Shown: one piece after another, positions 1-3,000 of the stretch
How positions within the stretch are numbered: position 1 is the stretch's first letter
Layout: each line of letters begins with the position of its first letter
Virus genome (UHGV): UHGV-1847110
Length of the DNA stretch: 17,679 bases
Reading direction: 5' to 3' (one strand)
Origin: a virus
Program-made: the position numbers

Positions 1-3000
1 TTTACATCGGTCTGCCGCAATGGTCGCATCCTAAATGGGTGCGGTTGGGGATCACCAGCCTTGAAGAGTACGCCCGCCACTTTAACTGCGTGACAGGACT
101 ATTTTAAAAATCACTAAAGAACGCCCAAGAGCATTCGCTTTCTTTAGTGTATTCAACACGTTAAAAATTAACACCATACGAAATTCGGTTAAGTTCGTAT
201 GTGTTATAGTGTCCCAACCATGTCCCAAAATGTCCCAAAACAGACATTTCTGTCCCATACATGCCCCAAGCAAATTCCACAATAGACAAGTAGTTTATTC
301 ATAAATTTACACGTAAAATCAATAGCGGCTGGAAATCATTCAATACTCGCATTATCGAAAGTTCTCCAGCCAGCCGCGGTGCGTTCTTGCATACGACGTG
401 CCGCGGCTTCTGTTATTCCACTATAAAATTCCTAATCGACTTCAAATCCCCCAGACTGCTCAGTTCTTCCCTTCATCTCCCTCCTACGGCGATAAATCTC
501 GTCATTGCGATCGACCTGCGCCTGCGCCATCTGTCAGCGCACCTGATATCACTACAGACATAGTTTTTCTCGCGATAAATTAAATCAGGAAGAGGCTTCC
601 GGAGAGACGGGCCATTCAATGGCGTTATATGAGGTTTTATCAGTGATGGTGCTGAAATCCATCGCCTGCAGCGATTTCGCGTAAATGCGCCAGACTGTCA
701 GCTTTTCTTTTTCTTCATCACCGATGATTCCCAAAAGTAAATCCGTCTTCTTATCGGATATTTCCCGTTCGGCAATCGCAGTAAGACGTGCACGCTCCGA
801 CTCTGCCTGCTGCCTGTAGTCAACAGGGACCGGTAGTACTTCACCGTCTTTATAATACCAGCGCGCCTCTATACAAAAGCCATCCGGTAGTTCATCCACT
901 TCCACAATGGTAAAACCAACGGGATAAAGACGGGATACATCTTCCGCCACGGAATAAATAACGCCGGTTTCAGGATGCGTGCACAGCTTGTATTTCTTCG
1001 TGAATTTATCCAGTGATTCATAAAAATCCTGCCCGTCTTCACTACGGAAATACTGAATGCCGTCACCATAAGGCATGTCTTCAGGGTAGTAACGCGTAAT
1101 GTTTGAGAGTTCCATTATTTTCTCCTTAATTAACCTGATACAGATCGCCATGCACCATTAATATAAATCTGAGCCTGTTTGTAATACACGCCACCGATAT
1201 TGTCTGCAGAGTTACGGCCAGTATCCTGAACATTAATGCCTGACAAAACACAACCAGAAGGTGCTCGAAACGTCCAGCTGTGCTCGTTCCCGCCCGGGTT
1301 GTAAAACACCTCACTGGTATACTGAAAATTCTGTACGCCACCTGTTTTGGTCTGGTAGCGGGCATCGAAGTTTCCGTAGTCTGACGGTATAACCTGACGC
1401 CCGCATCGCCAGTTTCCCGCATCATCCATATACGCCTGACCGTCCGTACCATTATCCGTACGGCTATTATTTATCATGTAAATGCCAAACTGCTTATTCC
1501 CAAGACCAGCCAGGAAATACTTTCTGTCTGCATGATCCTGACGCAGAAGCGCCTGAGCAGCATCAGTATTTATCCTGTTTTTCCCGAAAATAACGTTGTT
1601 GTCACGCATCTGAATCCACGTTCCGTTACTGCTGTTAATCGCAAAACGGCCTGCAAATACATCTTCTGTAACATCCAGACCGTGTCCCATAGTTATGCGA
1701 CCGGTCCTGAGATTAAGCGTAAAGGGGCGTAGCGGCCCAATATCACCACTCTCGCCCTGATTTTCCCGGGTAGGAATGAGGTACAGACACTCTTCCGAAC
1801 GACGAAAAATCAGACCAAAGGCTTCGTTGAAAATCCTCAGTGCATTAACGCCACGGATTTTCAGCTCCCCGGTCATGGTGTCTCCATCACGCTGAACGGC
1901 ATTTTTTGCCTTATCCACCGTGGGTTTTAATCCGAGGTTTTCAACAGCCTCATCACTGTCTTCGACATCCGAAAGATTATTTTTTATCAGCAATGCCTCT
2001 TCGTTAATTGCACCGCCCACCAGTAATAATATGGCTTTATATAACTGGTCGTGTTCCTCTTTATTCAGTTCTATCCCGGCCTTCTCAATGACACCACAGA
2101 TTTCCTCCTGAAGGGCATCCCACATGGCACTGTTCAGCCAGGTGGCATGACGCCCTGTACGAATATTCCCGTCAGTAAATCCGTTCTTGCCCGGGCCAAA
2201 TTTATCTTTAACTGCTGTCGGAGTGTCAATTCTGTGCATATTAAACCTCCCGTGAATGAAATATCAGAATTATGTCCTTGCCTGATTAAACAATTCCGCT
2301 GTGAAAGTCAGTTCACCCTTTGTGAAAGGCGTTTCTCCGCCTGGCTGGGCCATAAAACTCTGTGAGACAGTCGTCCAGCTGTTTGTGTCGCTTTGTACGC
2401 CATTCTCTGTAATCGTTGCACCTGCATGGCTGCCATTTTTCACTTTCCAGGCCAGGCGGTTATTGGGGGCATCAGCACCGCGGTAAGTGACCGAGGCCAT
2501 AACGGCCACAACATCACTGTTGACGTTATCCACCGCACCAAACGTGGCCTGTGCGGCATTCAGGGACGGCGAGAGCATCAGATATCCGGCCTCGCTGTCA
2601 GAGGTGTTCAGCCCCGTGACAATATCTTTATTCAGTGAGTTTTTGGCGCTTCCACCGGTAAATGCCGTTACCGGGCTGTATCTGACCTCAATGCTTCCGA
2701 GCAGGGCGGGTTCTGCACTATTATTTCTACCGTATGTCACTGTTCCACAGTACATATCACCCAGCATTAACGTGCCGGATGCACCCGATGAAAAAATATT
2801 GTCACCACTACCAATACTCACCTGAATTTTGTCAGTCCGGTCATCTGATACATAAAACGATGCATTTCCAACTAATGAGCGGTTGCAGTACAGACTGGCT
2901 GAGACATAGCCGTTTTCGTTTCGCGTTGCGAAAATTTCATAGTAATAACTGGCTGCTTCATCAGGATACGGGGTTGTAAATGAATAGCCATTAATCCTGA

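What the first reader, a model, noticed from the sequence alone, without database searches (positions are those of the whole stretch)
1..419. Possible boundary of the phage genome: convergent C-terminal ORF fragment and plus-strand terminator
Plus-strand frame 3 is open from the window start to a TAA at 105-107 (...LPQWSHPKWVRLGITSLEEYARHFNCVTGLF) with plausible codon usage, so a convergent gene may end here. About 270 bp downstream is a strong GC-rich hairpin plus U-tract oriented for plus-strand termination. Together with the repeat array, this suggests that the late operon ends near 585 and that the att/integration region or neighbouring host DNA begins in the first few hundred bases.
Basis: inference. 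Interest (0 to 1): 0.4.

Follow-up and report, generated by a model that had tools for sequence, protein, structure and literature searches.

The report
Prophage end inside host gene yecE
The first 92 bases are the start of the E. coli gene yecE, cut by a phiP27-like prophage at a known integration site; the hairpin is a conserved terminator left over from a deleted dinI-like gene cassette, so the finding is real but ordinary.

Summary
Both observations are real. Frame 3 is open to TAA at 105-107, and 372-408 forms a strong hairpin (-26.8 kcal/mol, z -4.5) followed by TCTGTTATT.

The ORF is not the C-terminus of a gene. It is the N-terminal 5' fragment of host yecE (window 1-92 = yecE nt 5-96). 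The gene is cut exactly after TTAACTGCGTG (82-92), the 11-bp att core annotated as attR in phage phiP27. Codons TGLF and the stop are phage DNA.

The phage/host boundary is therefore at 82-92, not spread over a few hundred bases. To its right:
- a P' arm with five direct TGYCCCA repeats (210-268), probable Int arm-type sites
- the last 21 nt of a deleted dinI-like gene (285-305)
- a ~100-nt element (314-417) made of an invariant hairpin A and a covarying hairpin B
- a frameshifted relic of a DUF4376 gene (416-530)
- the last intact late gene, a tail fibre assembly gene (585-1151)

Hairpin B keeps its pairing through compensatory changes in 12 of 14 pairs across 75 copies. Its E. coli K-12 homologue coincides with a published Term-seq 3' end on the same strand.

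yecE integration is already known. The conserved element, present in nearly all E. coli genomes, is the only mildly interesting by-product.

The parts
1..92 (+). Host DNA: 5' part of yecE (DUF72), codons 2-32. The ATG lies 4 nt left of the window.
   Evidence: 90 of 92 bases identical to K-12 yecE nt 5-96; homology stops exactly after base 92. In the closest genome (99.5% identical over window 1-620) the upstream genes are yecD, aspS, nudB and yebC.
82..92 (.). att core TTAACTGCGTG, the crossover region (attR in the phiP27 convention).
   Evidence: Annotated attR at the end of phiP27 record AJ298298. The same 11 bp recur at the other prophage end, ~22 nt after the int stop, in strain E100341.
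74..94 (.). 21-bp yecE att sequence of Nakamura et al. 2021, with 1 mismatch.
   Evidence: 0 expected by chance; the sequence is given in PMC8112680.
93..107 (+). Phage-encoded tail (TGLF) and TAA stop of the truncated yecE' ORF.
112..149 (.). AT-rich inverted repeat in the P' arm (13-nt arms); role unknown.
   Evidence: -12.3 kcal/mol, z -4.6. Pairing is not compensated in phiP27 (my reading of the alignment).
210..268 (+). Five direct TGYCCCA repeats at spacings of 11, 10, 20 and 11 nt: probable arm-type Int binding sites of the P' arm.
   Evidence: 5 of the window's 8 matches lie in 59 bp, all on one strand. Two more copies sit in the int 3' end at the other junction. The Int has an Arm-DNA-bind_2 domain. 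The repeats are conserved in phiP27, phi80 and PPompW relics, and partly in HannyBb.
277..372 (.). Counterpart of the 96-bp 'attB-in-PP_2' secondary attachment sequence (mapping inferred).
   Evidence: PPompW homology to the ykgJ/ecpE region starts at L008:982, which is 185 bp after its 21-bp att, as the paper describes. Window 286-414 is 83% identical to the K-12 ecpE-ykgJ spacer.
285..305 (+). Degenerate last 21 nt of a dinI-like ORF (GACAAGTAGTTTATTCATAAA versus GACGAGTGGTTTGTTCACTAA = DEWFVH*). Promoter and ORF are deleted.
   Evidence: Alignments. Intact LexA-box/dinI cassettes occupy this place in PhiR49_2, phi80 and an Stx2c phage.
327..371 (+). Hairpin A: sequence nearly invariant, no informative covariation.
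372..417 (+). Hairpin B (372-408) plus T-rich tail (409-417): intrinsic-terminator-like, oriented for + strand transcripts.
   Evidence: 12 of 14 pairs carry compensatory changes; 90.8% of cells paired versus 27-48% in slid controls. Term-seq 3' end at the K-12 homologue.
416..530 (-). Relic of a DUF4376 gene: the last 38 codons of a phiP27 L57 homologue, frameshifted near 471.
585..1151 (-). Tail fibre assembly gene (Caudo_TAP), the last intact gene of the late operon.

Best explanation
This is the tail-fibre-side junction (attR in the phiP27 convention) of a phiP27-like prophage with Mu-type tail genes, integrated in the E. coli gene yecE.

Shown: host yecE runs from its second codon to base 92. 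The 11-bp core TTAACTGCGTG (82-92) is where phage and host sequence were exchanged. Everything to the right is phage DNA.

Inferred: a tyrosine integrase with an N-terminal arm-binding domain, encoded at the other prophage end, recombined attP with yecE codons 29-32. The five TGYCCCA repeats at 210-268 are its P'-arm binding sites. Integration leaves a 36-codon yecE' stub that ends at a phage stop codon.

The hairpin at 372-408 is the terminator stem of a ~100-nt conserved phage element. In many related phages that element follows an SOS-regulated dinI-like 'moron' (an accessory gene cassette). Here the dinI promoter and ORF have been deleted, leaving the last 21 nt, hairpin A and the terminator.

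Most likely the hairpin still stops plus-strand transcription. In the lysogen that means read-through from yecD-yecE' that would otherwise run antisense into the tail genes. In the circular phage it means transcripts leaving int and crossing attP, because the hairpin starts ~310 nt after the int stop. The pairing is demonstrably under selection; termination at this particular copy is inferred.
For: - Junction: window 1-92 matches K-12 yecE nt 5-96 with 2 mismatches, and identity stops exactly at 92. phiP27 annotates the same 11 bp as attR, and window 82-530 is 88% identical to the phiP27 end.
- Closest genome: in E100341 (99.5% identical over window 1-620) the order is yebC-nudB-aspS-yecD-yecE' | ~40-kb prophage | xis-int-core-rest of yecE-yecN.
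- Published att: the 21-bp yecE att is at 74-94 with 1 mismatch.
- Arm sites: five clustered TGYCCCA copies here and two near the int stop. The Int has Arm-DNA-bind_2 plus Phage_integrase domains.
- Hairpin B: -26.8 kcal/mol, z -4.5. Across 75 distinct copies, 12 of 14 pairs have changes on both sides, and 0 of 500 shuffles reach the observed values.
- T-rich tail: 52 of 75 copies have at least 4 T in the 8 nt after the stem.
- dinI link: an intact dinI-like ORF ends ~20 nt upstream of the element in 47 of 97 assessable viral contigs. One such cassette has a TTGACA-18-AAAAAT promoter and a LexA box.
- In vivo 3' end: published Term-seq in K-12 finds a reproducible RNA 3' end at 304,212/304,213 (-). 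That is the U-tract after the homologous hairpin, on the equivalent strand. It was seen in three conditions and is not in a Rho termination region.
- Position relative to int: the element lies 112-460 nt downstream of int on the same strand in 13 of the 16 viral contigs where an int was detectable (a 14th lies 1,409 nt downstream). The detected Ints best matched all four query types: lambda, phi80, HannyBb and P27-like.
Against: - The U-tract here (TCTGTTATT) is interrupted. The K-12 homologue's intrinsic-terminator score was 2.78, just under that study's threshold of 3.0.
- 20 of 75 copies have only 2 T in the 8 nt after the stem.
- There are no transcript data for this strain, so termination at this copy is inferred from homology.
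- Int binding to the repeats is untested.
- The int, xis and second core are seen only in near-identical genomes, not in the window itself.
Confidence: 0.82

Rival explanations
1. The two back-to-back hairpins mainly terminate the minus-strand late (tail) operon, acting as a bidirectional terminator at the end of the tail fibre genes.
For: - In phiP27 the DUF4376 gene L57 stops 4 nt before hairpin B on the minus strand.
- On the minus strand hairpin A is followed by GCTATTGATTTTA, and the fold is also stable there (z -3.1 to -3.6).
- In phi80 the element abuts the end of a tail fibre gene.
Against: - On the minus strand the T-run is 6-7 nt away from the stem.
- In HannyBb ~2 kb of plus-strand genes separate the element from the tail fibre genes, while int lies directly upstream.
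- dinI cassettes use the element as their 3' end on the + strand.
- The in vivo 3' end in K-12 is on the + equivalent strand.
- In this window the late operon's last intact gene ends 177 nt away, at 585.
Confidence: 0.25
2. The conserved block is primarily a DNA site: a secondary attachment site (attB-in-PP_2 type) into which other lambdoid phages integrate. The hairpins are then by-products of recombinase-binding inverted repeats.
For: - Nakamura et al. 2021 report a lambda-like phage integrated at a 96-bp att that is ~81% identical to the ykgJ/ecpE spacer. It lies 185 bp after the yecE-like att in PPompW.
- The window has the same order and spacing (att at 74-94, block from 277).
- Hairpin A is nearly invariant without covariation.
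- Many different flanks join at the block's edges.
Against:
- Hairpin B varies in sequence while keeping its pairing. That pattern points to an RNA or single-strand structure rather than a sequence-specific protein site.
- No phage is integrated here in this window or in the 27 closest genomes.
- The two roles are not exclusive.
Confidence: 0.3
3. The hairpins are a lambda sib/tI-type retroregulator: they terminate int transcripts in the free phage and are separated from int by integration, giving differential int expression.
For: - int is transcribed toward the core. In the reconstructed circular genome its transcript meets hairpin B ~310-350 nt after the int stop, just beyond the P'-arm sites. 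In lambda, tI lies ~230-275 nt after int.
- Int-element linkage is seen across contigs whose Ints best matched four different query types.
Against: - There is no sequence similarity to lambda sib.
- In contigs with a lambda-type Int, lambda's own tI sequence directly abuts the upstream edge of the element. The element is therefore a separate entity there.
- Nothing tests RNase III processing.
- The association with dinI cassettes explains its presence without invoking int.
Confidence: 0.15
4. One reading: frame 3 is the C-terminal end of an intact convergent gene whose body lies left of the window.
For: The frame is open from the window start, with good codon usage.
Against: The sequence is the N-terminus of yecE (MIYIGLPQWSHP...). 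The ATG is 4 nt upstream of the window and overlaps the yecD stop, and the ORF totals 36 codons.
Confidence: 0.01

Closest known systems
phiP27 attR / yecE integration site (phage record AJ298298; yecE as an Stx-phage site, Nakamura et al. 2021, PMC8112680)
   Same: Same host gene, same 11-bp core, and 88% identical phage DNA for 450 bp beyond the core. The same arm repeats are present. The published 21-bp yecE att is present with 1 mismatch.
   Different: Relative to phiP27, this prophage lacks ~1.9 kb (L56 and most of L57), lost at an 11-bp direct repeat. Beyond base 620 it shows no further near-identity (megablast) match to phiP27 within the 1,200 bases searched.
Lambda attP organisation (int - P arm - core - P' arm sites - tI/sib)
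   Same: Int has an arm-binding domain. There are clustered direct arm-type repeats on the far side of the core, and a strong hairpin with a T-rich tail just beyond them on the int strand.
   Different: There is no sequence homology. The core lies inside a protein-coding gene. The arm repeats are farther from the core (+120 to +180). The hairpin belongs to a separate, mobile element that in a contig with a lambda-type Int sits just after lambda's own tI.
attB-in-PP_1 / attB-in-PP_2 block of PPompW-type prophages (Nakamura et al. 2021)
   Same: Window 1-373 is colinear and 77% identical with the PPompW block: yecE-like 100 bp, ~185-bp spacer, then ykgJ/ecpE-like sequence.
   Different: Here the yecE part is the real host gene (98% identical to K-12, versus 87% for the copies carried in phages) in its native chromosomal context. 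The phage-borne blocks therefore look like captured copies of a junction such as this one.
dinI-like SOS moron of lambdoid phages (phi80 dinL, Stx-phage DinI-like genes)
   Same: The last 21 nt of the ORF, the 3' untranslated sequence and the terminator hairpin are homologous.
   Different: The promoter, LexA box and nearly the whole ORF are missing here; only the tail of the cassette survives.

Membership tests
Prophage-host junction of a phiP27-type, yecE-integrating phage | Host target gene sequence runs up to the core and diverges from the uninterrupted allele immediately after it | tested here: met
   Window 1-92 equals K-12 yecE nt 5-96 (2 mismatches); no similarity after base 92.
Prophage-host junction of a phiP27-type, yecE-integrating phage | Core identical to the phage's annotated att, with phage DNA adjacent | tested here: met
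   TTAACTGCGTG is the attR feature of AJ298298; 88% identity over window 82-530.
Prophage-host junction of a phiP27-type, yecE-integrating phage | Second copy of the core at the other prophage end, next to int and followed by the rest of the target gene | tested here: met
   Seen in strain E100341 (99.5% identical over window 1-620): int-TAG-22 nt-TTAACTGCGTG-yecE nt 97 onward. This lies outside the window itself.
Prophage-host junction of a phiP27-type, yecE-integrating phage | Integrase binds arm-type repeats flanking the core | not testable with these tools
   Sequence evidence only: 5 + 2 TGYCCCA repeats and an Arm-DNA-bind_2 domain in Int.
Intrinsic (Rho-independent) terminator | Stable GC-rich stem-loop | tested here: met
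   14-bp stem, -26.8 kcal/mol, z -4.5.
Intrinsic (Rho-independent) terminator | Uninterrupted U-tract directly after the stem | tested here: inconclusive
   TCTGTTATT has 6 T in 9 but is interrupted. The consensus scan did not call the site. 35 of 75 homologues have at least 5 T in 8.
Intrinsic (Rho-independent) terminator | Pairing maintained by compensatory substitutions | tested here: met
   12 of 14 pairs with changes on both sides; 90.8% paired; 0 of 500 shuffles reach the observed values; slid controls 27-48%.
Intrinsic (Rho-independent) terminator | RNA 3' ends map to the U-tract in vivo | tested here: inconclusive
   Met for the K-12 homologue: Term-seq 3' end at 304,212/3 (-), not in a Rho termination region, intrinsic score 2.78. 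There are no data for this copy.
Lambda sib/tI retroregulator | Lies downstream of int across attP, on the int strand, and is separated from int by integration | tested here: met
   Reconstruction from both junctions.
Lambda sib/tI retroregulator | Homology to lambda sib, or an RNase III-sensitive extended hairpin | tested here: not met
   The lambda tI sequence is unrelated and directly abuts the upstream edge of the element in contigs L033 and L101; lambda-type Int is 295 nt upstream on the same strand only in L033. RNase III cleavage is not testable here.
attB-in-PP_2 (96-bp secondary att) | About 81-84% identity to the ykgJ/ecpE spacer, ~185 bp after a yecE-type att | tested here: met
   Window 286-414 is 83% identical to K-12. 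The block starts 182 nt after the 21-bp att.
attB-in-PP_2 (96-bp secondary att) | Actually used for integration by a phage | not tested
   No insertion is present in this window or in its closest relatives.
Known RNA families (Rfam 15) | Match reaching a family's gathering score | tested here: not met
   The only hit is a sub-threshold CssrB match (23 bits versus 76) on the minus strand of hairpin B, in both the window and the K-12 copy.

The most novel reading that the evidence does not exclude
The ~100-nt element (TAAAAT-7 nt-hairpin A-hairpin B-U tail, window 314-417) may encode an unannotated small RNA, or a 3'-UTR-derived RNA of dinI-like morons.

It occurs in 5384 of 5426 complete E. coli genomes (median 2 copies, up to 9) and in more than 120 viral contigs. 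It has an invariant 45-nt core, and a reproducible 'orphan' Term-seq 3' end in K-12 sits 30 nt upstream of ykgJ.

The same block may double as a secondary phage attachment site. Its chromosomal copy between ecpE and ykgJ would then be a fossil phage moron rather than the source of the phage copies.
Probability: 0.2. Interest if true: 0.55.

Novelty: already known. Interest (0 to 1): 0.25.

Why it matters
It fixes the exact prophage boundary (core 82-92) and corrects the annotation. The short ORF is a truncated host gene, not a gene end, and bases 93-584 are att arm plus decayed phage cassettes.

yecE is a known hot spot for Shiga-toxin and other prophages, so a precisely mapped junction is useful for prophage typing but not surprising.

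Three by-products are worth a short follow-up:
- phi80 and PPompW phages carry a fossil copy of this very kind of junction.
- The E. coli ecpE-ykgJ spacer looks like a decayed dinI cassette.
- A conserved, transcribed but unnamed element links these two observations.

Tried and rejected
- C-terminal gene fragment: rejected; it is the yecE N-terminus.
- Known RNA family: an Rfam search of the window and of the K-12 copy gave only a weak CssrB hit.
- Known prophage sRNAs: AsxR/AgvB sit at the PR' moron site. HnrS is restricted to EHEC/EPEC strains and lies within late genes. These are different loci, and the element's sequence is absent from those papers and from the Tree et al. 2014 supplements. 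A full-text search for the element sequence found nothing.
- EcsR2 sRNA near ykgJ: it lies in the other spacer, yagU-ykgJ.
- Transcription start for the K-12 RNA: Thomason 2015 is not held. The Cappable-seq and SMRT-Cappable-seq supplements had no entry, though at least one of those files was cut when stored. The TAAAAT box is therefore untested, and the consensus scan found no full promoter.
- Homology to lambda sib: none.
- PGAP 'capsid protein' pseudogene at window 299-379 in related genomes: probably spurious, since it overlies the non-coding hairpin A.
- Plus-strand ORFs 387-563 and 398-583, and minus-strand ORF 82-282 (phiP27 'L58'): treated as chance ORFs. They lie over a gene relic, or over the att core and arm repeats.
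- Hairpin A covariation: uninformative. The sequence is invariant, and half of it was fixed by the search pattern used to collect the copies.
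Full report
**Observation.** Frame 3 of the plus strand is open from the window start and reads YIGLPQWSHPKWVRLGITSLEEYARHFNCVTGLF*, with TAA at 105-107. A 13-nt inverted repeat at 372-384/396-408 folds into a 14-bp stem with a 9-nt loop: -26.8 kcal/mol, z = -4.5, and none of 200 shuffles folds as well. It is followed by TCTGTTATT. A second hairpin (327-371) abuts it on the left. The consensus terminator scan missed the site only because its loop limit is 8 nt.

**What the ORF is.** Window 1-92 equals E. coli K-12 yecE nucleotides 5-96 with two mismatches, and similarity ends abruptly after base 92. 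K-12 yecE begins MIYIGLPQWSHP..., so this is the N-terminus of the gene, not a C-terminus. In the closest complete genome (strain E100341, 99.5% identical over 1-620) the upstream genes are yebC, nudB, aspS and yecD. The yecE ATG lies 4 nt left of window base 1 and overlaps the yecD stop. NCBI's pipeline annotates a DUF72 pseudogene 'missing C-terminus' there. The last four codons (TGLF) and the stop are phage DNA, and the ORF is 36 codons in all.

**Where the boundary is.** The phiP27 record (AJ298298) ends at window base 82 and annotates its last 11 bp, TTAACTGCGTG, as attR. Window 82-530 is 88% identical to that phage end. In E100341 the prophage is about 40 kb. It has P27-type terminase and Mu-type tail genes, and at the far end an excisionase and a 437-aa integrase transcribed toward the host. 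The int stop is followed after ~22 nt by the same TTAACTGCGTG and then by yecE nt 97 onward and yecN. The junction is thus a classical attR with an 11-bp core at 82-92. The 21-bp yecE att published for Stx phages (Nakamura et al. 2021, PMC8112680) is present at 74-94 with one mismatch. About 27 of 5426 complete E. coli genomes carry essentially this junction.

**The att arm.** Five TGYCCCA copies lie on one strand within 59 bp (210-268), against three in the other 17.6 kb. Two more copies (ATGTCCCAATGATGTCCCATGG) sit in the int 3' end at the other junction. The integrase carries Arm-DNA-bind_2 and Phage_integrase domains. The repeats are conserved in phiP27. The distal pair is also conserved in phage HannyBb, whose Int is 61% identical although its core region is unrelated. 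I read them as arm-type Int sites of the P' arm; binding itself is untested.

**What the hairpin belongs to.** Bases 285-305 are a degenerate copy of the last 21 nt of a dinI-like ORF (DEWFVH*). In PhiR49_2, phi80 and an Stx2c phage, an intact SOS cassette occupies this position: a TTGACA-18-AAAAAT promoter, a LexA box and a dinI-like ORF. That cassette is followed by the same downstream sequence.

That downstream sequence is a ~100-nt element, TAAAATC-N6-GGCTGGAAATCATTCAATACTCGCACTATCGAAAGTTCNCCAGCC (hairpin A), followed by hairpin B. An exact-match scan found it in more than 120 viral contigs, with at least six unrelated upstream contexts and many downstream ones. An intact dinI-like ORF ends ~20 nt upstream of it in 47 of 97 assessable contigs.

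Across 75 distinct copies, hairpin B changes sequence but keeps its pairing:
- 12 of 14 pairs have substitutions on both sides.
- 90.8% of cells are paired, against 27-48% when the partner is slid.
- 0 of 500 shuffles reach the observed values.

Hairpin A is essentially invariant, so it gives no covariation signal. Part of that invariance was imposed by the search pattern. After hairpin B, 52 of 75 copies have at least 4 T in 8 nt, and several have canonical runs such as GCGGTTTTTCTTTTT.

**Direct evidence for strand and function.** The element is also in 5384 of 5426 E. coli genomes, including a core-genome copy between ecpE and ykgJ. Published Term-seq data for K-12 (Adams et al. 2021, PMC7815308, supplementary files 1 and 3) list a reproducible 'orphan' RNA 3' end at 304,212/304,213 on the minus strand. 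It appears in all three growth conditions, 30-31 nt upstream of the ykgJ start. [quoted passage not shown] By my coordinate mapping this is the U-tract after the homologous hairpin B, on the strand equivalent to the window's plus strand. The homologous hairpin therefore ends plus-strand RNA in vivo. For the window's own copy this remains an inference.

**How it most likely works here.** With the dinI promoter and ORF deleted, the terminator is an orphan that still sits in a useful place.
- In the lysogen it is the strongest stem-loop between the co-transcribed yecD-yecE' and the antisense side of the tail genes.
- In the circular phage, int transcripts cross attP and reach it ~310-350 nt after the int stop, just beyond the arm sites. 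This geometry resembles lambda tI/sib.

The element lies 112-460 nt downstream of int on the same strand in 13 of the 16 viral contigs where an int could be detected, and 1,409 nt downstream in a 14th. The detected Ints best matched all four query types used: lambda, phi80, HannyBb and P27-like. It is not homologous to sib, however. In contigs L033 and L101 lambda's own tI sequence directly abuts the element's upstream edge, and in L033 a lambda-type Int lies 295 nt upstream on the same strand. I therefore do not file it as a sib-type retroregulator.

A role as the late-operon terminator on the minus strand is possible but weaker. The minus-strand T-run is displaced from the stem. In HannyBb the element is next to int, not next to the tail genes.

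**Relation to 'prophages integrating into prophages'.** Nakamura et al. describe, inside PPompW and other prophages, three features in order: a 100-bp yecE-like block containing the 21-bp att (attB-in-PP_1), a conserved 185-bp spacer, and a 96-bp att ~81% identical to the ykgJ/ecpE spacer (attB-in-PP_2). Window 1-373 is colinear with that PPompW block at 77% identity. phi80 carries the same thing, annotated as a DUF72 N-terminal pseudogene followed by dinL. Both relics retain the core and four of the arm repeats.

The PPompW homology to the K-12 spacer starts exactly 185 bp after its 21-bp att. This places the attB-in-PP_2 counterpart at window ~277-372 (dinI relic plus hairpin A), with hairpin B just outside. 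This mapping is my inference, because the paper's sequence figures are not held.

The phage-borne blocks thus look like captured copies of a yecE attR junction of the kind seen in this window.

The K-12 ecpE-ykgJ spacer contains a decayed dinI-like gene (71-86% identity to a phage dinI), followed by the element and then ykgJ. Several viral contigs carry the element plus a ykgJ homologue. This suggests the chromosomal copy is a fossil of phage origin rather than the source of the phage copies.

**Between the element and the late genes.** Bases 416-530 (minus strand) are the last 38 codons of a phiP27 L57 (DUF4376) homologue, with a frameshift near 471. Relative to phiP27, ~1.9 kb has been lost at an 11-bp direct repeat, GCCTGCGCCAT (520-530). 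The last intact late gene is the tail fibre assembly gene at 585-1151.

**Verdict.** The finding is a correctly sensed but mis-assigned prophage boundary at a well-known integration site. The boundary, core and phage type are already known. The hairpin is a genuine, selected terminator-type structure inherited from a dinI moron. The only part with some novelty is the widespread, transcribed, unnamed element to which it belongs. No Rfam family or named sRNA matches it. Exact matches among species-representative genomes are confined to Escherichia and Shigella, apart from three probable contaminant contigs.

Noticed in passing
window 314-417; K-12 copy at L131:3003-3110 (NC_000913.3 ~304,198-304,310, minus strand): A ~100-nt element (invariant hairpin A plus covarying hairpin B) is present in 5384 of 5426 complete E. 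coli genomes (median 2 copies, up to 9) and in more than 120 viral contigs. It matches no Rfam family and has no annotation. Published Term-seq shows a reproducible orphan 3' end at its U-tract in K-12. No transcription start data were found.
   Followed up: partly
L131:2838-3460 (K-12-type ecpE-ykgJ region): The ecpE-ykgJ spacer holds a decayed dinI-like pseudogene followed by the element and ykgJ. Several phage contigs (L037, L082, L086, L091, L112) carry the element plus a ykgJ homologue at 80-90% identity. The chromosomal block therefore looks phage-derived, the reverse of the direction proposed in the literature.
   Followed up: partly
L003:2997-3260 (phi80) and L008:703-1010 (PPompW), compared with window 1-300: Both phages carry a fossil copy of a whole yecE attR junction: the yecE 5' fragment from its ATG, the core, and the P' arm with four TGYCCCA repeats. 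The published 'attB-in-PP_1' therefore appears to be a captured hybrid att site rather than a simple attB.
   Followed up: partly
window 520-530 and 416-584: Relative to phiP27, ~1.9 kb (tail fibre gene L56 and most of DUF4376 gene L57) is missing. The deletion joint is at an 11-bp direct repeat, GCCTGCGCCAT. The surviving L57 3' end is frameshifted near 471.
   Followed up: yes
window 299-379, minus strand: In near-identical RefSeq genomes NCBI's pipeline annotates a 'capsid protein' pseudogene fragment here. It overlies the non-coding hairpin A and is probably an annotation artefact propagated from a mis-called protein.
   Followed up: no
L004:6970-7740 and 7722-9035 (strain E100341, far end of the prophage): The remaining yecE is annotated as an intact 256-aa DUF72 ORF. 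Its start lies in phage DNA and overlaps the int stop by 19 nt, so int read-through might express an N-terminally altered YecE.
   Followed up: no
window 112-149 and 175-201: Two AT-rich inverted repeats lie in the P' arm between the core and the arm-type repeats (z -4.6 and -2.4). The first is not compensated in phiP27. They are possible accessory-protein sites (IHF/Xis type) or chance.
   Followed up: partly
window 3343-4302, compared with L001:7718-8302: The closest genome annotates a truncated YmfQ-family pseudogene where the window has a 319-aa ORF, and there is an unannotated gap upstream of it. This may be a tail-fibre-region rearrangement between otherwise near-identical prophages.
   Followed up: no
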